This document shows, piece after piece, positions 1,677 to 10,888 of a DNA stretch of 10,888 bases; the first letter of the stretch is position 1, and every line of letters begins with the position of its first letter. Below the pieces are notes generated by a model, which was not told where the DNA came from, ran no database searches, and saw only the letters and a list, made by a program, of their open reading frames with translations. Origin of the DNA: a virus (lineage: Duplodnaviria; Heunggongvirae; Uroviricota; Caudoviricetes); the IMG/VR virus record IMGVR_UViG_2600254997_000025; one strand, given 5' to 3'. Made by a program: the position numbers and the translations under genes.

Positions 1677-1680
1677 TCAT

Positions 1681-1740
1681 GGGTGGTAGCCCGGACGGGG
1701 GTAGGAATACCGGCCTTCAAGGAAACCGGCCAGCCCGAAG
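1681..1740 (-). ncRNA. Candidate P4 CI-RNA-like immunity RNA (seqB-like segment)
   Basis: On the transcribed minus strand this segment carries CCUUGAAGG, UUCCUAC and CUACCACC. These are complementary to CUUCAAGG and GUAGGAA in the two flanking repeats, and to GUGGUAG (revcomp of 1655-1662) in the downstream repeat only. It is GC-rich with internal GGCCGG/CCGG self-complementarity. Confidence 0.35.
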
Positions 1741-1856
1741 GCTGCCCCGCCCGGACCACCATTATCTGACAGAGGCTACGGTTTAAAAACCACAGCCAGA
1801 AAAACAGGTGTGCCGAAGCAACGACGTAAAAAAAAGACGCATGGCGCGTCATATGT

Positions 1857-1885
1857 CGCCTTGAAGTAACTCGGGTTCCTACGCC
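1857..1885 (-). promoter_or_regulatory. seqA-like antisense target repeat in the leader of the leftward operon
   Basis: Second copy of the CCTTGAAGTAAC...GTTCCTACGC pair, about 20-50 nt downstream of the predicted promoter on the minus strand. Confidence 0.35.
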
Positions 1886-1913
1886 CGGCTGCCGATTTTG
1901 CGGCAGCGGAAAA

Positions 1914-1943
1914 ACTATATCCGCAAATGCCGGAAAAAGGCAA
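1914..1943 (-). promoter_or_regulatory. Candidate sigma70 promoter for the leftward immunity/replication operon (PLE-like)
   Basis: Minus strand reads TTGCCT (revcomp of 1938-1943), an 18-nt spacer, then TATAGT (revcomp of 1914-1919). A 7-bp hairpin (GCTGCCG/CGGCAGC, 1888-1907) sits at the predicted start site. Confidence 0.35.
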
Positions 1944-1956
1944 GCCAGTGTATGGG

Positions 1957-2989
1957 TCCACCACATATTGCAATTTTTATTCTCTTTTAAAATATATTCC
2001 ACGGGCGTCATTAGTGCGAGCGCCTTGTGGGGTCTTTTGCTGTTATACAGCACCAGATATTCCGCCAGCTTCTGGTTAAATAGCGCCAGATCTTCAAAGA
2101 GTAAAATCTCATTAAATTCAATAAACTGCTCTCTTAACGTCCGGTTAAACGTTCACAGATAGCGTTTCATTTTTTGGCGTGTAGGGATAGGTCCAGAGGT
2201 TGTTTGATAGCGGCTTTCCTGCAGCGTTTTTGTCGAAGTTTCCCAGGAACTCTTTTCCGTTATCTGTGATTATCTGGCTGATACCGACCGGGAACAACCG
2301 GGCTGCGCGGCTGAAGAAGTGATTGACGATATCACTGTTGAGTGACGGCACAGCCAGCGCCAGCGCGTAATTGCTGCATTCGTCGATCATGGTGATGACA
2401 TAGCGACGCAGTTCGCCCATTCTGAGCTCAATGGCGTCCATCCCAATGAGCTCACCTGTCTTTACCGGGCGGTAGTGCTTTGGCCTGCGGGGTTTGGCAG
2501 ACCGCTTTTGACAAGCAGTGCCTTCCCCCGCGATCCCAGACGCACAGGTATCATCCGCATTTTATCATGTGCGGCAGCGATCATTCTGCCGATGGTGGAA
2601 ACACTCGGACAGGCCAGATAGCGCTGTTCGCACCAGGGCTTCAGGCGAACAAAAATCTGCTCTTTACCGAGGTTCGGCAGCTCTGTCCTGAGGCGTCGAA
2701 TCTCTTTCAGCACATCGGGATGCCAGTGTTTTTTTCGTCGCACCAGAGGTGCCTTACTGTGCGGGATTAGCCCCTCAGGTCCTTCCTTGTTCAGTAACTG
2801 ACGCCACCAGTAAAGCGTGCGGCAGGACACGCCAAAGGCTTCAGAAGCTGCAGAAATACCGTGTTTATCCCAGAAGTGCAGAGCCTTCATTCTCATTGTT
2901 GCTATATCAGCCATCACTGAAAGCCTCAACGCATAATCGGCCGTTTGGTAGTACTTAGGATAGCCAACCATCAGATGCTGCATTTGCAT
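1957..2989 (-). pseudogene. Degraded DDE transposase (IS481-like), split over three frames
   Basis: Track ORF 2462-2989 has an N-terminal HTH-like region (GISAASEAFGVSCRTLYWWRQLL). ORF 2145-2441 has an rve-type core with ITDNGKEF. The start of ORF 1427-2053 has the transposase C-terminal signature [18 protein letters not shown]. The pieces are in different frames with gaps. Confidence 0.5.
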
Positions 2990-3035
2990 AGTGCAATCTC
3001 CCCTTACTTATCCGGAGGCAATTGCAATATCTCTG
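1957..3035 (-). mobile_element. IS remnant of about 1.08 kb inserted between vis and the immunity region; boundaries approximate
   Basis: ATATTGCAATT at 1966-1976 is an inverted copy of AATTGCAATAT at 3020-3030, a candidate terminal inverted-repeat core. Only 11 bp is shared, so the ends are not precisely defined. Confidence 0.4.
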
Positions 3036-3082
3036 TGAACTTACACAGCCAGAAAAAGGGAGTTTTTGCAGAGCGGGCATCA

Positions 3083-5205: not shown

Positions 5206-5808
5206 ATGGAAAGCACAGCCTTACAGCAGGCCTTTGACACGTGTCAGAATAACAAAGCAGCATGGCTGCAACGCAAAAATGAGCTGGCTGCGGCCGAACA
5301 GGAATATCTGCGGCTTCTGTCAGGAGAAGGCAGAAACGTCAGTCGCCTTGACGAATTACGCAATATTATCGAAGTCAGAAAATGGCAGGTGAATCAGGCC
5401 GCCGGTCGTTATATTCGTTCGCATGAAGCCGTTCAGCACATCAGCATCCGCGACCGGCTGAATGATTTTATGCAGCAGCACGGCACAGCACTGGCGGCGG
5501 CACTGGCACCGGAGCTGATGGGCTACAGTGAGCTGACGGCCATTGCCCGAAACTGTGCCATACAGCGTGCCACAGATGCCCTGCGTGAAGCCCTCCTGTC
5601 CTGGCTTGCGAAGGGTGAAAAAATTAATTATTCCGCACAGGATAGCGACATTTTAACGACCATCGGATTCAGGCCTGACGCGGCTTCGGTGGATGACAGC
5701 CGTGAAAAATTCACCCCTGCGCAGAACATGATTTTTCGCGTAAAAGTGCGCAACTGGCATCACGTCAGTCTGTGTAAAATTCCCCGAAAATCCGCCTGTT
5801 TTTACTGA
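5206..5808 (+). CDS. psu: Psu-like polarity-suppression / capsid decoration protein, 200 aa
   Basis: Third gene of the late triplet, with AAAGAG upstream of the ATG. N-terminus MESTALQQAFDTCQNNKAAWLQRKNELAAAEQEY. The call rests on synteny plus recalled similarity. P4 Psu is recalled as about 190 aa, so the C-terminus may differ. Confidence 0.7.
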   Translation: MESTALQQAFDTCQNNKAAWLQRKNELAAAEQEYLRLLSGEGRNVSRLDELRNIIEVRKWQVNQAAGRYIRSHEAVQHISIRDRLNDFMQQHGTALAAALAPELMGYSELTAIARNCAIQRATDALREALLSWLAKGEKINYSAQDSDILTTIGFRPDAASVDDSREKFTPAQNMIFRVKVRNWHHVSLCKIPRKSACFY

Positions 5809-5810
5809 AA

Positions 5811-5841
5811 AAAGCCATGCATCGATAAGGTGCATGGCTTT
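5811..5841 (+). terminator. Hairpin immediately after psu stop, possible terminator of the late operon
   Basis: AGCCATGCA (5813-5821), 9-nt loop, TGCATGGCT (5831-5839): a perfect 9-bp stem flanked by an A run before and TT after. The T tract is short, so intrinsic termination is uncertain. Confidence 0.4.
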
Positions 5842-5916
5842 GCATGCGTTTCCCTGCCTCATTTTCTGCAGACCGCGCCATTCCCGGCGCGGTCTGAGCG
5901 TGTCAGTGCAACTGCA

Positions 5917-5944
5917 TTAAAACCGCCCCGCAAAGCGGGCGGGC
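5917..5944 (-). terminator. Candidate intrinsic terminator for the minus-strand cargo operon
   Basis: On the minus strand GCCCGCCCGC, loop TTT, GCGGGGCGG form a GC-rich stem (about 8 bp with one bulge) followed by TTTTAA. It lies about 35 nt downstream of the last cargo gene stop and is not followed by a T run on the plus strand. Confidence 0.4.
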
Positions 5945-5960
5945 GAGGCGGGGAGAGCAT
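5942..5960 (+). other. P2/P4-type cos site (cohesive-end 19-mer), uncleaved prophage form
   Basis: GGCGAGGCGGGGAGAGCAT matches 17 of 19 positions of the P2/P4 cohesive end GGCGAGGCGGGGAAAGCAC as recalled from memory. It sits directly after psu, as in P4. Confidence 0.6.
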
Positions 5961-5978
5961 TGCGCGCAGGTAAAAAAA

Positions 5979-6668
5979 TCATTTATTTTGTAATGCCGCA
6001 TCAAATCTGGTCTTGAGATCTTGGAATGGGATAACGAGTTTATCGATATAATCTTTATTATTATTTTGTAGAATTGCTTCAACAAAATCATTTAGAGGTG
6101 CATAGTTTTCTAATACTTTAGAATCGATAAAATCTTTATAGGACATACATTCAGCACCAATGCTAAGGCTTTCACCTATATACTTTTGTTCAAGAGATCT
6201 AATACAAGGAAAACCAATATCGTTCTCTCGTAGGGCTATAGAAATATTTTTGATTAATTCAGTTATTAACATTTCATCATTAGTTGGTGAAAATACAGAT
6301 GAATCTCTATTTTTCCTGAATTGATGTACCCAGCAAAAATATTGGCATAGATAGAATCTTGTACTATCAATATAATATTGATCCGACGATAGGTCATTGT
6401 GATCTTTAATATAACATAGCCTTCCTAAAAAACCATTTGCAGCACTAAGTAATGTTAACCCCCAACGTCCGATTTCAAGATCTCTTGCTTTTTTAAAATT
6501 ATAAGCACGTTCATCCTCTTTAATTCTCTGTTCACTTTCATATTTCAACTTATTTTTAAATGATTCTAACTCTCTTTTATCAATATGTTGTAAAAAAGCC
6601 TTACAAACAAATCCAATAATTGCAAATGAAATGCTTGATGACAAAATACCTTCCCAAAAGCTACTCAT
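5979..6668 (-). CDS. Small protein, 229 aa, with one predicted N-terminal transmembrane helix; third gene of the RT cassette (possible DRT1 partner / effector)
   Basis: ORF in track. Hydrophobic N-terminus FWEGILSSSISFAIIGFVCKAFL. The ATG (6668-6666) overlaps the TGA (6667-6665) of the nitrilase ORF, indicating translational coupling. AT-rich codon usage like the rest of the cassette. Confidence 0.65.
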   Translation of the reverse strand: MSSFWEGILSSSISFAIIGFVCKAFLQHIDKRELESFKNKLKYESEQRIKEDERAYNFKKARDLEIGRWGLTLLSAANGFLGRLCYIKDHNDLSSDQYYIDSTRFYLCQYFCWVHQFRKNRDSSVFSPTNDEMLITELIKNISIALRENDIGFPCIRSLEQKYIGESLSIGAECMSYKDFIDSKVLENYAPLNDFVEAILQNNNKDYIDKLVIPFQDLKTRFDAALQNK

Positions 6669-8512
6669 TTCTCACCTCGCTCTAATAGAGCATTATAGTC
6701 AAACCCTGGAGGATTGTGTTTAATAGTATCGGAGTTAATTCTGAATGAACGATATTGAGCCTCTCTCAATGCATATATATTTAAAGTAGTAGTTAGGATG
6801 CAATTGTTTTCCCCACCTTTTATATATATCTTATTTGAAATAGTGCTACTGGTCGGTTGTAGAACACAAGAACCGCCATAATGCGAAGTATTTGATTGAG
6901 CCACATAACAATGTAAATCCCGTGTCGCTGACTCAGTGATATGTTGATAATAATTTATATCTTGATTCCATACGCAAGCAAATAAAATATCCAACTGCGA
7001 ACGAAATAATGCTCTATGCTCGATATTAGCCAGTTCAAAACAGTTGTATGTAGAAAATGATACGTTTTTCCACTTAATCAAATGATACCGTTGTTTACTA
7101 GGTTTAGGAGAGGATATTTTTAACCTTAAAGAATTCAGCATCGTAATCTCACTAGGTGCGTAATGATTTTTCACTCGAAAAACTAACATACTGGATTTGT
7201 GTTTAAAGTTTGAAGTATAAGGCAGCATTTCAACCAAAATATTATATGCGCGTTCGTTAATAACCCAATGCTCTAATCCGAAAATCAAAGATATTTGTTT
7301 TCTCCTTGAATGTGCTGCCATAAAAGGTAACCACGACACAGGAATTGATAACTCAGGGAGTAGTAATATCTGCACATTTTCTTCAGTTGCCGAGTTGAGA
7401 ATACGATAAAGGTTTCTTTGCCGTTCATAACTTAAATTTGGAGACTGATCTTTTCTGCAAGCACTTTCAATATTACGACGTTCAACTCTCATATTTGCCA
7501 ACGCAACTTTTATTGTGTCATTACCACTTCTATCATCAATTCCTACCTTTATTTCAAGAGCTTTATTATCTTTTATCTTAGTAACAGAGCAATTTTTTAA
7601 GTGATGCTTATTTTCATGCGTAAACTTATGTAGTTTTCTTGTATGAAGAGCATCAATCAAATCGAAAAGCTGCTTTTCATCAGCATGAATATATCTAGGG
7701 GTTTTATTTAATTTATCATTATCAAGTGGAATACCATGCATCTTACTGTATAAATTCTCCTCAGTAAGATCTCCTTTATATTTAGTATAGTTAGCTAAAG
7801 GCCAAGACACTAGATTATGACGAATCAAATTACTGCTTCTAAATCTTTCAATTAGAACAGACATTCCATCGGACTGTTTAATTAAAGATTTCAAACCTTC
7901 CAAAGCTCTATTTTGTGGCTCTTTATCACCTAAAATGACATTTAAATCTAACAAAGCCAAATTCAAACAAAGAGAAATATCAATGTATTTCTGCATTCCA
8001 TTTTTAAGTTTTGGAGATATAACACTATCACCTTCCTTCCACTTCATTTTATTAATTGATTCTTTAATTTGTTTGTAAAAGGCGATTGAAAATCCATATT
8101 TTCTTGTAATTAATGTATACGATAGAACTTTCTCCCATAACCGACTGAACCTTAGAGAATTTTCACCTTTAAAAAACAGCGTTATTTGCTTTAAGGTATT
8201 CTCATTCGATGGAAGATTGCAAAGCCTATGAGCTAAGATATGTGATGATATATATTTTGATAATTCAGTTTCATTCTCTGCCAAACCTACAATACTTCTA
8301 AATTTATTTGCCGAACCATCAAGTAATATATCATAAGCAAATTTATCGAGATCGCTAGATATATGTTCTTCCGGTAAAAAACGAAATGCACTGCTTCTGT
8401 TCTCAATTTCTTGTTTGAAGACTTGTAAACCAGCCAAACTATGATCTTTATTGAAATAATGAAAAATCAATTTATCCTTTTGAATTGGTAATTCATGATA
8501 ACTCTCGGTCAA
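6665..8512 (-). CDS. Nitrilase (C-N hydrolase) domain protein; probably the C-terminal part of an RT-nitrilase fusion (annotated start is TTG)
   Basis: Nitrilase-superfamily catalytic triad context: Glu in ILLLPELS, Lys in LVFRVKNHYAPSE, Cys in TYNCFELANIEHR, plus HYGGSCVLQP. The frame is open 30 codons upstream of the TTG, back to the slippery heptamer in the RT gene. The first in-frame ATG is only at about codon 155. Confidence 0.8.
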   Translation of the reverse strand: MTESYHELPIQKDKLIFHYFNKDHSLAGLQVFKQEIENRSSAFRFLPEEHISSDLDKFAYDILLDGSANKFRSIVGLAENETELSKYISSHILAHRLCNLPSNENTLKQITLFFKGENSLRFSRLWEKVLSYTLITRKYGFSIAFYKQIKESINKMKWKEGDSVISPKLKNGMQKYIDISLCLNLALLDLNVILGDKEPQNRALEGLKSLIKQSDGMSVLIERFRSSNLIRHNLVSWPLANYTKYKGDLTEENLYSKMHGIPLDNDKLNKTPRYIHADEKQLFDLIDALHTRKLHKFTHENKHHLKNCSVTKIKDNKALEIKVGIDDRSGNDTIKVALANMRVERRNIESACRKDQSPNLSYERQRNLYRILNSATEENVQILLLPELSIPVSWLPFMAAHSRRKQISLIFGLEHWVINERAYNILVEMLPYTSNFKHKSSMLVFRVKNHYAPSEITMLNSLRLKISSPKPSKQRYHLIKWKNVSFSTYNCFELANIEHRALFRSQLDILFACVWNQDINYYQHITESATRDLHCYVAQSNTSHYGGSCVLQPTSSTISNKIYIKGGENNCILTTTLNIYALREAQYRSFRINSDTIKHNPPGFDYNALLERGEK

Positions 8513-8580
8513 CGTAAAGCCTTTCTCATCATTCGCTGCCTGTTTGATGAATCCATTAAGGGTTCGCTCTATGAATTTTA

Positions 8581-9540
8581 TTACTTCTTCACCTTTATCT
8601 TCTTTTTTAATGTCCGGGGATGAAAAACTAAAAGAATATCATCCACATAGCGACCGTAGTACGATGGATTAATTTTTGATTTAATATCTTTATCAAAACC
8701 CATTAAATACCAATTAGATAATATGGCAGAAGAAGTAAATCCAATTGGAATGCCTTTTGATGAAGGAGTTGAATGTGTCACACCAATATATGGAGATATT
8801 TTCTCTCTGTATTTTTGATGCATCAACCTCAATTTACTATTCAACAACATAGAAAGAGCTTTAATTTCTTCTAATTGTTCTTCGTCAATAATTCTATCAA
8901 TGGCATCAAAATCTATATCTATATTATAATAAAAACCCTTAAGATCCAGAGAAAGAATTGCAACATCATTTCGCTCTTTTTCTATAACTTCTATCGCTTT
9001 ATCGATACCACCATCTCGCCATTTATTATAATTATCAATGTATCTTTCAAAGATATTTTTTGAGGAGTTTTTTGGCGCATCGAAACTATTCTTAGAATAT
9101 TTTTTTATTACTTTTGATATTCTATTTCCATAAACCGAATCAGAAAACTTGTCATCTAGCATTGAACCAACAAAGATAGACCAGAGTGTTTCTATTAAAT
9201 ATATTTCAATAGGAGCAACGATCAAATAATTTACAGCACCTACTTTGTATTCATCTGATGTCTTATTATTACTTAAAAAAAGAGCTCCGCTCGTTTGCTC
9301 AATATCCAAATGGCTATCAATTATTTTTGGTAATAATTCAACATCAATTTTATTTAGCCACTCATTAAAGTTAATGTCATTATTATTTTCAAAAAAATCA
9401 ACCACTTTTTCTATTTTTTCGTCATAGAGAGAATCTTCAAATTGAGCGATTTCTTCCTTTAGGAAAAAATTTAAGTTTTCGTAGTAAGCATATGACTTAA
9501 GACAATTATATGCACTAACAACTATATCTTTTGTAATCAT
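8581..9540 (-). CDS. Reverse transcriptase (UG/Abi-type, defence-associated), 319 aa in this frame
   Basis: RT palm motifs: LSLDLKGFYYNIDIDF, GIPIGFTSSAILSNWYLMGFD (the GxPQG..S..L.N.YL-type motif) and YYGRYVDDILLVF (the YxDD catalytic motif). The ORF ends 6 codons after an A_AAA_AAG heptamer. Confidence 0.85.
   Translation of the reverse strand: MITKDIVVSAYNCLKSYAYYENLNFFLKEEIAQFEDSLYDEKIEKVVDFFENNNDINFNEWLNKIDVELLPKIIDSHLDIEQTSGALFLSNNKTSDEYKVGAVNYLIVAPIEIYLIETLWSIFVGSMLDDKFSDSVYGNRISKVIKKYSKNSFDAPKNSSKNIFERYIDNYNKWRDGGIDKAIEVIEKERNDVAILSLDLKGFYYNIDIDFDAIDRIIDEEQLEEIKALSMLLNSKLRLMHQKYREKISPYIGVTHSTPSSKGIPIGFTSSAILSNWYLMGFDKDIKSKINPSYYGRYVDDILLVFHPRTLKKKIKVKK
8602..8608 (-). other. A_AAA_AAG slippery heptamer at the RT/nitrilase frame junction
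   Basis: On the minus strand ACA TTA AAA AAG AAG reads A_AAA_AAG in the RT zero frame. A -1 shift here continues GAA GAT AAA GGT ... with no stop into the nitrilase ORF, exactly 30 codons to the TTG at 8512. Confidence 0.5.
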
Positions 9541-9631
9541 AACGCATCATTCCGTGTATAAGTCTGTTATAGATGAAAGTAAAACTGAAATTGATTAATA
9601 CCTAACAAAAACATACAGAAAAAATCAATTA

Positions 9632-10888
9632 TTAATATTTTTTTGCAAAATCAAATGGTGTTACGAAAGTCTCACGATTTGCTGATAGGAAATCCGCCCA
9701 CCATTGCATCATCAATCGACGTTCGTCCAAATGCTCTGAAGTATGGATATAAGCTGCACGAACATTATTGCGCTCCGAGTGGCTTAACTGACGTTCTATC
9801 GCATCATCACTCCAAAGCCCCGACTCCCCCAAAGCACCACCCGCCATTGTTCTAAAACCATGCCCACATACTTCCGTTTGTGTGTCGTAGCCCATAGTCC
9901 TGAGCGCATTATTAACTGTGTTTTCGCTCATAACTTTATTGGGATCATGATCACCGGGAAACAGTCTAGGATTATCTCCACTAAGCTTCTTCAACTCATC
10001 CAGCAAAGCTAGAGCCTGAGTGCTCAATGGAACAATATGTTCCTCTTTCATCTTCATCCCACGATAGGAGTAACGCACACCTTCGATTTCTTCACGCCGC
10101 GCCGGTATCCGCCAGCAGGCGTTATCAAAATCAAACTCATCCCATCGGGCAAATCGCATCTCACTAGAGCGAACGAAGGTAAGTAGAGATAACTCGACTG
10201 CAATACGCGTCATTTTGCGGCCACGATATGCCGCAAGGCGTGCCAGAAACTCAGGGAAACGGCTGGAAGGTAGAGCTGGATAGTGTCGTGCTTTAGTTGT
10301 CGATAACGCACCAGCCATATCGCTAGCCGGGTTCGAGTCGATATAATCGTTCTGTACGGCATACCGCATAATGGCCGTGACGCGCTGTTGCAGGCGCTGA
10401 GCGACGTCGTGTTTACCACTGACATCAACTTTTTTAATCGGGGCTAATAGGTGGCTAGTTTTGAGCTGGCGAATGTCGGACGAACCGATATGAGGGAAGA
10501 TATAAAGCTCAAGATAGCGAAGAACACGCGATCGATGGTCTTCACTCCAGCGCTTGTTACTGGCATGCCATTCGCGAGCAATGGTTTCGAAGGTATATAC
10601 CCCCGAATTCTCGGCCTGAGCTTCTTTCTGTTCGGCTTTTGGGTCAATGCCCTGCACTAACAGCTTTTTAGCTTCGTCGCGCTTTGCTCTTGCCTGAGCA
10701 AGCGTCACTGTAGGCCAAACACCAAAAGCGAGGCGATCCTCTTTTTTGTCAGAGGGGCGTCGGTATTTCATGCGCCAGTATTTAGAACCCTTGGCCGAAA
10801 CCTCGAGATACAAACCGCCGCCATCGGCCATTTTGTATGTTTTGTCTTTTGGCTTTGCGGTCTCGACCTGTCTGGCGTTGAGCTTCAT
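9632..10888 (-). CDS. int: P4-type tyrosine integrase (site-specific recombinase), 418 aa
   Basis: ORF in track. N-terminus MKLNARQVETAKPKDKTYKMADGGGLYLEV is typical of P4-family integrase arm-binding domains. C-terminal catalytic region with R (TFVRSSE), HGFR and the Tyr context VRAAYIHTSEH. The ATG sits at the last 3 bases of the window. Confidence 0.9.
   Translation of the reverse strand: MKLNARQVETAKPKDKTYKMADGGGLYLEVSAKGSKYWRMKYRRPSDKKEDRLAFGVWPTVTLAQARAKRDEAKKLLVQGIDPKAEQKEAQAENSGVYTFETIAREWHASNKRWSEDHRSRVLRYLELYIFPHIGSSDIRQLKTSHLLAPIKKVDVSGKHDVAQRLQQRVTAIMRYAVQNDYIDSNPASDMAGALSTTKARHYPALPSSRFPEFLARLAAYRGRKMTRIAVELSLLTFVRSSEMRFARWDEFDFDNACWRIPARREEIEGVRYSYRGMKMKEEHIVPLSTQALALLDELKKLSGDNPRLFPGDHDPNKVMSENTVNNALRTMGYDTQTEVCGHGFRTMAGGALGESGLWSDDAIERQLSHSERNNVRAAYIHTSEHLDERRLMMQWWADFLSANRETFVTPFDFAKKY

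What the first reader, a model, noticed from the sequence alone, without database searches (positions are those of the whole stretch)
5979..9540. AT-rich RT + nitrilase + membrane-protein cassette in the cos-int cargo slot: candidate antiphage system (DRT type 1-like)
Three co-directional, translationally linked genes encode a reverse transcriptase with clear palm motifs (YVDD), a protein with a nitrilase-type Glu/Lys/Cys triad, and a small single-pass membrane protein. They sit exactly between the satellite cos site and its integrase, where P4 itself carries gop/beta/cII. That slot is known as a variable defence hotspot in P4-like elements. RT-nitrilase fusions correspond to the UG1 / DRT type 1 class of defence-associated RTs, whose mechanism is, as far as I know, not understood. 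This copy differs from the single-polypeptide architecture I recall for that class.
Basis: partly seen in the sequence, partly recalled or inferred. Interest (0 to 1): 0.85.

Follow-up and report, generated by a model that had tools for sequence, protein, structure and literature searches.

The report
Known RT-nitrilase defence cassette, frameshifted copy
This is a copy of an already published and tested anti-phage system (a reverse transcriptase fused to a nitrilase, plus a small membrane protein) carried by a P4-like satellite of E. coli. Its apparent three-gene layout comes from one missing base that is probably a sequencing error.

Summary
The ORFs are real, but the finding is not new and the unusual architecture is not real. 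PADLOC places ORF-A (9540..8581) on positions 1-316 and ORF-B (8512..6665) on positions 344-958 of one 958-residue model, RT_UG5-nitrilase. ORF-C (6668..5979) is RTasTM. So A and B are one gene.

In E. coli copies that are 99.7-99.9% identical the gene is a single 958-aa protein. The window lacks one T of a T6 run (8623-8627), five codons after YVDD. The cassette is the 'RT-nitrilase + 1TM' system of Rousset et al. 2022 (plasmid pFR76, E. coli E101, P4 psu-int hotspot). That insert maps to window 5657-9663, and its protein 2 is identical to ORF-C. It belongs to UG5-large (class 3 UG/Abi), not UG1/DRT1.

The same protein ('DRT5L', Neville et al. 2026) makes covalently attached DNA without a template.

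The source draft assembly carries many homopolymer indels: in psu, in holC, and about seven in an IS481-family copy that shows no clean substitutions. I therefore put the frameshift at about 70% artefact and about 27% real knock-out.

Novelty: already known. Interest: low.

The parts
6665..9540 (-). Single RT-nitrilase gene (UG5-large; intact form 958 aa, WP_000628823.1-like), here interrupted by a 1-nt deletion
   Evidence: PADLOC PDLC02995 covers positions 1-316 on ORF-A and 344-958 on ORF-B. The region is 99.8% identical to the intact 2877-nt genes of other E. coli, with one gap. Restoring the T gives a 958-aa ORF that differs from WP_000628823.1 by K73I, V907I and H913N.
8581..9540 (-). 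ORF-A as read in the window: residues 1-306 of the RT plus 13 out-of-frame residues (HPRTLKKKIKVKK) and a stop
   Evidence: Pfam RVT_1 matches residues 167-306.
8638..8649 (-). YVDD, palm motif C of the RT
   Evidence: Read directly from the sequence. Y/V/D/D are invariant in 34 homologues.
8623..8627 (-). T5 run that is T6 in every other copy examined: the frameshift site (codons 305-307)
   Evidence: Alignments of the window with 4 and then 13 E. coli copies; comparison with L001.
8602..8608 (-). A_AAA_AAG heptamer, in phase only in the shifted frame. A -1 slip here would restore the nitrilase frame. Probably coincidental.
   Evidence: Sequence. No stable downstream structure, z = -0.27.
6665..8512 (-). 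ORF-B as read in the window: residues 344-958 of the same protein (helical middle region plus nitrilase domain), starting at a TTG
   Evidence: All of the 120 listed homologues that are not truncated E. coli fragments are single polypeptides of about 950-1060 aa.
6755..7510 (-). Nitrilase (CN-hydrolase) domain, residues about 678-929, with E730 (7354-7352), K791 (7171-7169) and C834 (7042-7040)
   Evidence: Domain limits come from the HHpred table of Rousset et al.. The triad residues are invariant. C834 aligns to DRT1 C1116. Foldseek top hits are nitrilase-superfamily amidases 5ny7, 6ypa and 2w1v.
5979..6668 (-). Partner membrane protein (RTasTM, cluster 1858; WP_000094232.1). It has an N-terminal TM helix followed by an all-helical bundle and overlaps the upstream gene by ATGA.
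   Evidence: PADLOC RTasTM E 5e-164. Identical to protein 2 of pFR76. KD19 maximum 1.94 at residues 8-26. AF2 pLDDT 87.7, with no specific fold match. Overlap shown.
9541..9663 (-). Upstream region containing the native promoter, included in the published functional clone
   Evidence: The pFR76 insert starts at window 9663. The consensus scan found no promoter-like site here.
5923..5960 (.). Terminator-like hairpin for the cassette (5942-5923, minus strand) overlapping the cos-like 19-mer GGCGAGGCGGGGAGAGCAT (5942-5960)
   Evidence: The same motif occurs in the P4 and related sequences of Rousset Table S2A. Its identity as P4/P2 cos is from memory.
5206..5808 (+). psu (polarity suppression) gene bordering the hotspot. 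It also carries a T6->T5 shift at 5732-5736.
   Evidence: Pfam Psu call in L005; alignment A3.
9632..10888 (-). P4-type tyrosine integrase bordering the hotspot. tRNA-Leu lies beyond it in related loci.

Best explanation
The cassette is a copy of the published UG5-large 'RT-nitrilase + 1TM' anti-phage system, carried in the psu/cos-int hotspot of a P4-like satellite integrated next to tRNA-Leu. It has two genes, not three.

The first gene encodes a 958-aa protein: RT palm with YVDD, a helical middle region, and a C-terminal nitrilase-fold domain with Glu730/Lys791/Cys834. The second gene encodes a 229-aa single-pass membrane protein and is translationally coupled to the first.

In this window the first gene reads as two ORFs because one T of a T6 run is missing, five codons after YVDD. 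The source draft assembly is full of homopolymer indels. I put the missing base at about 70% sequencing artefact, about 27% genuine inactivating mutation, and the rest (about 3%) on the other readings.

How the intact system works:
- Shown in the literature for this protein: it makes DNA from dNTPs without a template and stays covalently attached to it (protein priming).
- Shown for this system: it protects E. coli from phage when expressed from its native promoter, assayed at room temperature.
- Reported by Mestre et al., citing Rousset et al.: the membrane protein is needed.
- Inferred from DRT1 and DRT11: the DNA adduct drives oligomerisation through the nitrilase domains into a dormant assembly. 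A phage replication factor releases it. The nitrilase then acts on an unknown essential amide- or amine-bearing metabolite and infection aborts.
- Speculative: the membrane protein is a downstream effector or anchor.

As written in the window, the gene would yield an RT fragment that ends right after motif C, and no defence.
For: One gene:
- ORF-A and ORF-B cover positions 1-316 and 344-958 of a single PADLOC model.
- All of the 120 listed homologues that are not truncated E. coli fragments are single polypeptides of about 950-1060 aa.
- In E. coli copies at 99.7-99.9% identity the gene is annotated as one 2877-nt CDS, WP_000628823.1.
- The only frame-breaking difference is T6->T5 at 8623-8627.

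Identity with the published system:
- The pFR76 insert maps to window 5657-9663.
- The first 399 nt printed in the supplement differ from the window at one base.
- Protein 2 of pFR76 is identical to ORF-C.
- Protein 1 reads through the break as ...YVDDILLVFSSPDIKKEDKGEEV....

Class:
- UG5-large, class 3, with TM cluster 1858.

Domains:
- RVT_1 hit.
- The profile's best PDB match is DRT1 9YFD in both the RT and the nitrilase regions, with Cys834 aligned to C1116.
- The AlphaFold model (pLDDT 77) matches nitrilase-superfamily amidases and the RTs of DRT9, AbiA and DGRs.

Mechanism from the literature:
- The 'DRT5L' sequence in the supplement of PMC13275509 is this E. coli protein. It synthesises covalently bound DNA without a template.
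- The DRT1 model is set out.
- DRT11, a UG5-large system, needs both active sites and behaves like abortive infection.

Artefact:
- psu has the same kind of T6->T5 loss.
- holC in the same contig carries +1 and -1 indels 38 nt apart with an internal stop. The best-matching E. coli genome, out of 5426 that carry this region, has an intact holC.
- The IS481-family copy in the window differs from an intact element by about seven single-base A/T-run indels and no clear substitution.
- Only this one assembly encodes the 319-aa product.
Against: - Genuine frameshifts do occur in this AT-rich gene. The A6->A7 allele is found in at least two assemblies, from Korea and Nicaragua. About 40% of complete-genome copies are disrupted in some way. 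A real mutation therefore cannot be excluded.
- The window allele also has four private substitutions, three of them non-synonymous. This would fit relaxed constraint, but four is too few to say.
- The oligomerisation, trigger and substrate steps are transferred from DRT1, which has a different RT clade, size and TM partner. None of them has been shown for UG5-large.
- The DRT1 priming serine is reported as not conserved in other class 3 RTs.
- Plain Pfam hmmscan does not detect CN_hydrolase in ORF-B.
Confidence: 0.9

Rival explanations
1. The frameshift is real and this copy is a dead or decaying defence gene. The RT-nitrilase gene was knocked out by a homopolymer contraction in a satellite that is itself eroding, while the TM gene remains intact.
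For: - Independent disruptions of the same gene are common in complete E. coli genomes: an internal stop at codon 174, A7->A6 at codon 145, A6->A7 at codon 41, IS1A at two sites, ISEc60, and IS1- and IS3-mediated deletions.
- The window allele has 3 non-synonymous and 1 synonymous private changes.
- The satellite also carries an IS481-family insertion.
Against: The same contig shows indels that are hard to accept as biology. These are a double indel with an internal stop in holC, a psu frameshift of the same T6->T5 type, and an IS copy that differs from intact copies by A/T-run indels with no clear substitution. No other assembly carries this allele.
Confidence: 0.27
2. A genuinely split three-gene variant, with RT, nitrilase protein and TM protein made as separate functional products, comparable to UG5-small where the nitrilase is a separate ORF.
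For: - UG5-small systems with a separate nitrilase ORF exist.
- ORF-B gives secondary hits to the RT_UG5_small and RTasNitrilase models.
Against: - The break is not at a domain boundary. It cuts the RT palm five codons after YVDD and removes the rest of the RT from ORF-A.
- ORF-B starts only at TTG, 68 nt downstream and in another frame.
- The DNA is 99.8% identical to single-ORF alleles and differs by one base in a homopolymer.
- UG5-small has no TM partner, whereas this cassette has one.
- The UG5-nitrilase (large) model scores far higher than UG5_small: 657 and 1485 bits against 258 and 198 bits.
Confidence: 0.02
3. Programmed or fortuitous -1 ribosomal frameshifting at A_AAA_AAG (8608-8602) rejoins the two ORFs. 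This would give a low level of full-length protein with five substituted residues (HPRTL for SSPDI).
For: In the shifted frame the heptamer is in the phase required for -1 slippage, and the -1 frame is the ORF-B frame. From memory, this heptamer is the dnaX slippery site and is shifty in E. coli even without stimulators.
Against: - There is no stable downstream structure, z = -0.27, and no upstream Shine-Dalgarno-like element in the sequence.
- In intact alleles the run is read ATT AAA AAA GAA, so the in-phase heptamer exists only as a by-product of the deletion.
- The deletion itself is probably an artefact.
Confidence: 0.03
4. A member of DRT type 1 (UG1).
For: - It shares the RT, helical region and C-terminal nitrilase layout.
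- The best solved-structure match is DRT1 9YFD, E 1.4e-25, with the catalytic Cys aligned.
- Nitrilase phylogeny nests UG1 inside a UG5 radiation.
Against: - PADLOC Drt1a scores are 54 and 36 bits, against 657 and 1485 bits for UG5-nitrilase.
- The protein is 958 aa, against 1200-1300 aa for UG1.
- Rousset et al. and Mestre et al. place the RT in UG5.
- The TM partner matches only RTasTM models.
Confidence: 0.02

Closest known systems
'RT-nitrilase + 1TM' of E. coli E101, plasmid pFR76 (Rousset et al. 2022, Cell Host Microbe; PMC9122126); I recall it is listed in DefenseFinder as Rst_RT-nitrilase-Tm
   Same: Same locus type (P4-like satellite, between psu/cos and int). Same two genes. The insert maps to window 5657-9663, the TM protein is identical, and the RT-nitrilase is identical over the 399 residues printed except K73I.
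   Different: The window lacks one T at 8623-8627, which splits the first gene. It also has three amino-acid differences from the common allele: K73I, V907I and H913N.
UG5-large, class 3 UG/Abi RTs (Mestre et al. 2022, PMC9226505); PADLOC RT_UG5-nitrilase + RTasTM
   Same: RT fused to a C-terminal CN-hydrolase with a downstream TM protein of cluster 1858. PADLOC E-values are 1e-197, 0 and 5e-164.
   Different: None at the family level, apart from the broken reading frame in this copy.
'DRT5L' of Neville et al. 2026 (Nat Struct Mol Biol; PMC13275509)
   Same: The sequence printed in their supplement is this E. coli protein. It was purified and shown to synthesise covalently attached DNA without a template.
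   Different: They expressed the intact protein without the TM partner. No structure or priming site was reported for it.
DRT1 (UG1) of Klebsiella pneumoniae, PDB 9YFD
   Same: Class 3 layout. The catalytic Cys aligns (C834 with C1116). It is the best solved-structure match. Its mechanism is the template for the one inferred here.
   Different: It has a different RT clade, 1229 aa against 958 aa, and works without a TM partner. Its priming Ser402 is reported as not conserved outside DRT1, and the optional partner Drt1b is a different protein family.
DRT11, UG5-large of Sinorhizobium meliloti RMO17 (Sanchez-Nieto et al. 2026, PMC13436386)
   Same: UG5-large RT-nitrilase. Both active sites are required, and its behaviour resembles abortive infection.
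   Different: It has no TM gene, sits on a megaplasmid and is only a distant relative. The E. coli system is reported to need its TM protein.
gop-beta-cII of P4 itself
   Same: Occupies the same hotspot and is also an anti-phage cargo.
   Different: The proteins are unrelated.

Membership tests
UG5-large / 'RT-nitrilase + 1TM' (Rousset 2022; Mestre 2022) | RT domain of the UG5 clade with an intact palm motif | tested here: met
   PADLOC RT_UG5-nitrilase E 1.3e-197 on ORF-A, next best family Drt3a at 3e-17. Pfam RVT_1 E 1.9e-10. YVDD at 8649-8638.
UG5-large / 'RT-nitrilase + 1TM' (Rousset 2022; Mestre 2022) | C-terminal CN-hydrolase domain with a Glu/Lys/Cys triad | tested here: met
   E730, K791 and C834 are invariant in 34 homologues. 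Cys aligns to DRT1 C1116. Foldseek top hits are nitrilase-superfamily amidases. Pfam hmmscan alone gave no hit.
UG5-large / 'RT-nitrilase + 1TM' (Rousset 2022; Mestre 2022) | RT and nitrilase in one polypeptide | tested here: inconclusive
   As written, the frame is broken by T6->T5 at 8623-8627. Adding back one T gives the 958-aa fusion. The break is probably an assembly error, but reads were not available.
UG5-large / 'RT-nitrilase + 1TM' (Rousset 2022; Mestre 2022) | Downstream single-pass TM protein of cluster 1858 (RTasTM) | tested here: met
   PADLOC RTasTM E 5e-164. 100% identical to pFR76 protein 2. One hydrophobic segment at residues 8-26.
UG5-large / 'RT-nitrilase + 1TM' (Rousset 2022; Mestre 2022) | Location in the P4-like psu/cos-int hotspot | tested here: met
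   psu at 5206-5808, a cos-like site at 5942-5960 and int at 9632-10888. The same layout with tRNA-Leu is seen in L001. C4 RNA and isrK hits come from the P4 immunity region.
UG5-large / 'RT-nitrilase + 1TM' (Rousset 2022; Mestre 2022) | [quoted passage not shown] | not testable with these tools
   Reported for the E101 allele and for 'DRT5L', the same protein. Not tested for the window allele.
DRT type 1 (UG1) | RT of the UG1 clade, protein of 1200-1300 aa | tested here: not met
   Drt1a models score 54 and 36 bits, against 657 and 1485 bits for UG5-nitrilase. The repaired protein is 958 aa. UG1 size is given.
DRT type 1 (UG1) | Priming serine (S402) in a disordered loop after the RT | tested here: inconclusive
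   The profile alignment to DRT1 stops at residue 371-373. UG5-large has an invariant Ser-Ser (S383/S384, motif RSSAFRFLP) in a low-pLDDT stretch about 82 residues after YVDD. Equivalence is not shown.
DRT type 1 (UG1) | Optional TM partner Drt1b (cluster 85) | tested here: not met
   ORF-C hits only the two RTasTM models at E<=0.1.
UG5-small (RT plus separate nitrilase ORF, no TM) | Nitrilase encoded by its own gene after a complete RT of about 630 aa; no TM partner | tested here: not met
   The split lies inside the RT palm at residue 306. A TM partner is present. UG5_small scores are much lower than those of the large model. Family definition.

The most novel reading that the evidence does not exclude
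The T5 allele is real and is a naturally attenuated version of a costly abortive-infection system, not simply dead. Ribosomes slipping -1 on the A_AAA_AAG heptamer 15 nt downstream of the deletion would rejoin the frames and give a low dose of full-length RT-nitrilase with five altered residues after motif C. About 40% of complete-genome E. coli copies carry an independently disrupted RT-nitrilase gene. Together these would point to recurrent selection to switch this system off or turn it down.
Probability: 0.03. Interest if true: 0.35.

Novelty: already known. Interest (0 to 1): 0.1.

Why it matters
It matters little as a discovery. The system, its hotspot, its family and part of its biochemistry are all published. 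The useful outcomes are practical:

1. This locus should be annotated as UG5-large RT-nitrilase + TM (frameshifted), not as a new three-gene DRT1-like architecture.
2. Homopolymer miscalls in an AT-rich cargo gene can mimic a split-gene variant. Any unusual architecture should be checked against near-identical alleles before it is called new.
3. Open questions remain for this family: what the nitrilase hydrolyses, what the TM partner does, and which residue primes DNA synthesis in UG5-large. This sequence offers a candidate Ser-Ser motif but no answer.

Tried and rejected
- I first placed the frameshift in the A6 run (TTAAAAAAG), because a one-A insertion there would also give 958 aa. Alignment showed that the missing base is in the T6 run 15 nt upstream.
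- Single-sequence searches of ORF-B and ORF-C against PDB sequences found nothing. A profile of 34 homologues was needed.
- Pfam and NCBIfam give no family for ORF-B or ORF-C.
- The Rfam scan found no RNA family inside the cassette. This fits template-free synthesis, so no ncRNA model was built.
- A test for a frameshift-stimulating structure was negative.
- I asked whether the TM gene is preferentially spared by disruptions. With about 7 point or IS events and a 4:1 difference in target size, zero hits in the TM gene is expected about 23% of the time, so no claim is made.
- An attempt to align the DRT1 priming loop to UG5-large failed to extend past the RT.

Full report
**What is in the sequence.** Three minus-strand ORFs occupy the stated interval: 9540..8581 (319 aa, ORF-A), 8512..6665 (615 aa, TTG start, ORF-B) and 6668..5979 (229 aa, ORF-C). 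The block has GC 0.28-0.35, against 0.50-0.58 in the flanks. ORF-A matches Pfam RVT_1 (E 1.9e-10) and carries YVDD at 8649-8638. Pfam finds nothing in ORF-B or ORF-C.

**ORF-A and ORF-B are one gene.**
- In PADLOC, ORF-A aligns to positions 1-316 of the 958-position model RT_UG5-nitrilase (E 1.3e-197). ORF-B aligns to positions 344-958 of the same model (E 0). ORF-C is RTasTM (E 5e-164).
- Of 5426 complete E. coli genomes, 31 carry the whole cassette at 99.7-99.9% identity, always on the chromosome. In intact copies the first gene is a single 2877-nt CDS annotated 'RNA-directed DNA polymerase' (for example WP_000628823.1), followed by the 229-aa gene.
- Alignment shows the window lacks one T of a T6 run, GTTTTTTCA to GTTTTTCA, at window 8623-8627 (codons 305-307).
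- ORF-A is therefore residues 1-306 plus 13 out-of-frame residues. ORF-B is residues 344-958. Adding the T back gives a 958-aa ORF that differs from WP_000628823.1 only by K73I, V907I and H913N.
- All of the 120 listed homologues that are not truncated E. coli fragments are single polypeptides of about 950-1060 aa.
- ORF-B and ORF-C are genuinely coupled, with an ATGA overlap at 6668-6665 and GAGGTGAG upstream.

**Domains.**
- An alignment of 34 homologues (44-81% identity) has invariant YVDD. In the C-terminal third it has invariant Glu (LLPE), Lys (RxKNHYAP) and Cys (YNCFEL). These are E730, K791 and C834 in full-length numbering.
- A profile of this alignment finds DRT1 (PDB 9YFD) as its best solved relative (E 1.4e-25), in both the RT and the nitrilase regions. 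C834 aligns to DRT1 C1116.
- An AlphaFold2 model (mean pLDDT 77, pTM 0.75) matches nitrilase-superfamily amidases by Foldseek (5ny7, 6ypa, 3hkx, mouse Nit2 2w1v; target TM-score 0.57-0.63). It also matches the RTs of DRT9, AbiA, DGRs, DRT2 and retrons.
- ORF-C has one hydrophobic segment (residues 8-26) and a confident all-helical model (pLDDT 87.7). That model resembles only generic helical bundles.
- The ORF-C family is small, 29 clusters, and every named member comes from Enterobacterales. Several members come from contigs of the same length as those carrying the closest RT relatives, which suggests co-location.

**Context.**
- The related locus L001 shows the P4-like gene order: primase, icd-like, ash, HTH regulator, sid-like, ogr/delta, psu, the cargo, integrase, then tRNA-Leu.
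- The window has psu (5206-5808), a cos-like 19-mer (5942-5960), a terminator-like hairpin for the cassette (5942-5923), and the integrase (9632-10888).
- Rfam finds the C4 antisense RNA and isrK, which I recognise as parts of the P4-type immunity region.

**It is already known.**
- Rousset et al. 2022 (PMC9122126) surveyed the psu-int hotspot of P4-like satellites. They cloned 'RT-nitrilase + 1TM' from E. coli E101 (plasmid pFR76) and validated it as an anti-phage system, assayed at room temperature. They describe the RT as unknown group 5, reminiscent of type-I DRT but from a different clade.
- Their Table S2A gives the insert and proteins. The insert maps to window 5657-9663, and the 399 nt printed differ at one base. 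Protein 2 is identical to ORF-C. Protein 1 reads through the break as ...YVDDILLVFSSPDIKKEDKGEEVIKF....
- Their HHpred table gives CN_hydrolase at 99.7% probability for residues 678-929.
- Mestre et al. 2022 (PMC9226505) classify it as UG5-large, class 3. They state that the TM protein (cluster 1858) is needed for immunity.
- Sanchez-Nieto et al. 2026 (PMC13436386) place the E. coli system in the UG5 radiation and note that it protects against a podovirus-like phage. They also show that a TM-less UG5-large system (DRT11) needs both active sites and behaves like abortive infection.

**Mechanism.**
- Neville et al. [quoted passage not shown] The DNA adducts drive assembly of dormant filaments built on nitrilase tetramers. 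The nitrilase Cys is required, and T4 Dda is needed for activation.
- They also purified 'DRT5S' and 'DRT5L' and showed covalently attached, template-independent DNA products. The DRT5L sequence in their supplement is this E. coli protein.
- For the intact form of this gene, protein-primed template-free synthesis is therefore shown. Oligomerisation, the trigger, the nitrilase substrate and the role of the TM protein are inferred or unknown.
- As a lead only: UG5-large has an invariant Ser-Ser (S383/S384, RSSAFRFLP) in a low-confidence stretch about 82 residues after YVDD. DRT1 Ser402 lies 77 residues after its active-site Asp. The profile alignment does not reach that region.

**Is the frameshift real?**
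- The window comes from the draft assembly GCA_000754045.1, contig ALNX01000056.1. It is the only assembly on record that encodes the 319-aa product.
- The same contig has many single-base indels relative to close relatives:
  - psu has a T6-to-T5 loss at 5732-5736 that rewrites its C-terminus.
  - holC has a +1 and a -1 indel 38 nt apart with an internal stop. The region is present in all 5426 genomes, and holC is intact in the best-matching one.
  - 15.5 kb aligned to L001 holds five single-base indels, four of them in homopolymers.
  - The IS481-family element at 1949-3046 differs from an intact 1095-bp copy by about seven single-base indels in A/T runs and no clear substitution.
- Indels without substitutions are the signature of homopolymer miscalling. 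I therefore put the break at about 70% artefact.
- A real knock-out remains plausible, at about 27%, because the gene is often disrupted in nature:
  - an internal stop at codon 174 in strain M6, probably shared by the related mouse strains, judging from Rousset Table S1A;
  - A7->A6 at codon 145;
  - A6->A7 at codon 41 in strains from Korea and Nicaragua;
  - IS1A at two sites;
  - ISEc60;
  - IS1- and IS3-mediated truncations.
- Either way the split is not an architecture. It cuts the RT palm five codons after motif C.

**A curiosity.** In the shifted frame the codons TTA AAA AAG form the A_AAA_AAG heptamer in phase (8608-8602), and the -1 frame is the ORF-B frame. No stimulatory structure follows it (z = -0.27). 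In intact alleles the run is read in a different phase. I treat this as coincidence.

**Verdict.** The cassette is a known, validated UG5-large RT-nitrilase + TM system in its known hotspot. The copy is frameshifted, probably by sequencing error. Novelty: already known. Interest: 0.1.

Noticed in passing
window 5732-5736 (psu, + strand): psu carries the same kind of T6->T5 loss as the RT gene. This gives a 200-aa product with a rewritten C-terminus in place of the usual 190 aa.
   Followed up: yes
L005 1112-1318 and upstream (holC, source contig outside the window): holC of the source assembly has a +1 (CCC->CCCC) and a -1 indel 38 nt apart, creating an internal stop. The region is present in all 5426 complete E. 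coli genomes, and holC is intact in the best-matching one. This points to indel errors in the assembly.
   Followed up: yes
window 1949-3046: A 1098-bp IS481-family element is inserted in the satellite's ash/regulator region (absent from L001). Its transposase is split into several ORFs. It differs from an intact 1095-bp copy (WP_001178384.1) by about seven single-base indels in A/T runs, with no clear substitution.
   Followed up: yes
window 1679-1766, 1830-1907, 1868-1920 (minus strand): Rfam hits above gathering score: C4 antisense RNA, isrK, and the a1/b1 targets of C4. I recognise these as the P4-type immunity region, lying next to the IS insertion.
   Followed up: no
E. coli loci L002, L004, L006-L009, L016, L018, L019: By my count, roughly 13-14 of 33 complete-genome copies have a disrupted RT-nitrilase gene, through at least eight independent events (nonsense, two homopolymer frameshifts, three IS insertions, two IS-mediated deletions). 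The TM gene is intact wherever it is present. With the 4:1 difference in target size this asymmetry is not significant. The high loss rate might reflect a cost of the system.
   Followed up: partly
window 8602-8608 (minus strand): A_AAA_AAG, the dnaX-type slippery heptamer, is in phase only in the frameshifted reading. A -1 slip there would rejoin the two ORFs. No downstream structure was found.
   Followed up: partly
window 8395-8390 (codons S383/S384 of the repaired protein): An invariant Ser-Ser within the invariant motif RSSAFRFLP lies in a low-pLDDT stretch about 82 residues after YVDD. This is a positional analogue of the DRT1 priming Ser402 and a candidate priming site for UG5-large.
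   Followed up: partly
window 5979-6668 (ORF-C) and proteins P0121-P0149: The TM partner family is small, 29 clusters, and every named member comes from Enterobacterales. It has many invariant charged and aromatic residues in the soluble helical part (for example GRW, LLSxxNG, IRSxEQxYIG). No PADLOC model other than RTasTM matches it.
   Followed up: partly
window 5942-5960: The cos-like 19-mer GGCGAGGCGGGGAGAGCAT differs at two positions from the P4 sequence printed in Rousset Table S2A (GGCGAGGCGGGGAAAGCAC). A Klebsiella satellite in the same table has the GAGAGCAT version.
   Followed up: no
window 3742 and 1828: Two further single-base length differences in T runs relative to L001 (T6 against T7; T8 against T7), both in intergenic DNA.
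   Followed up: no
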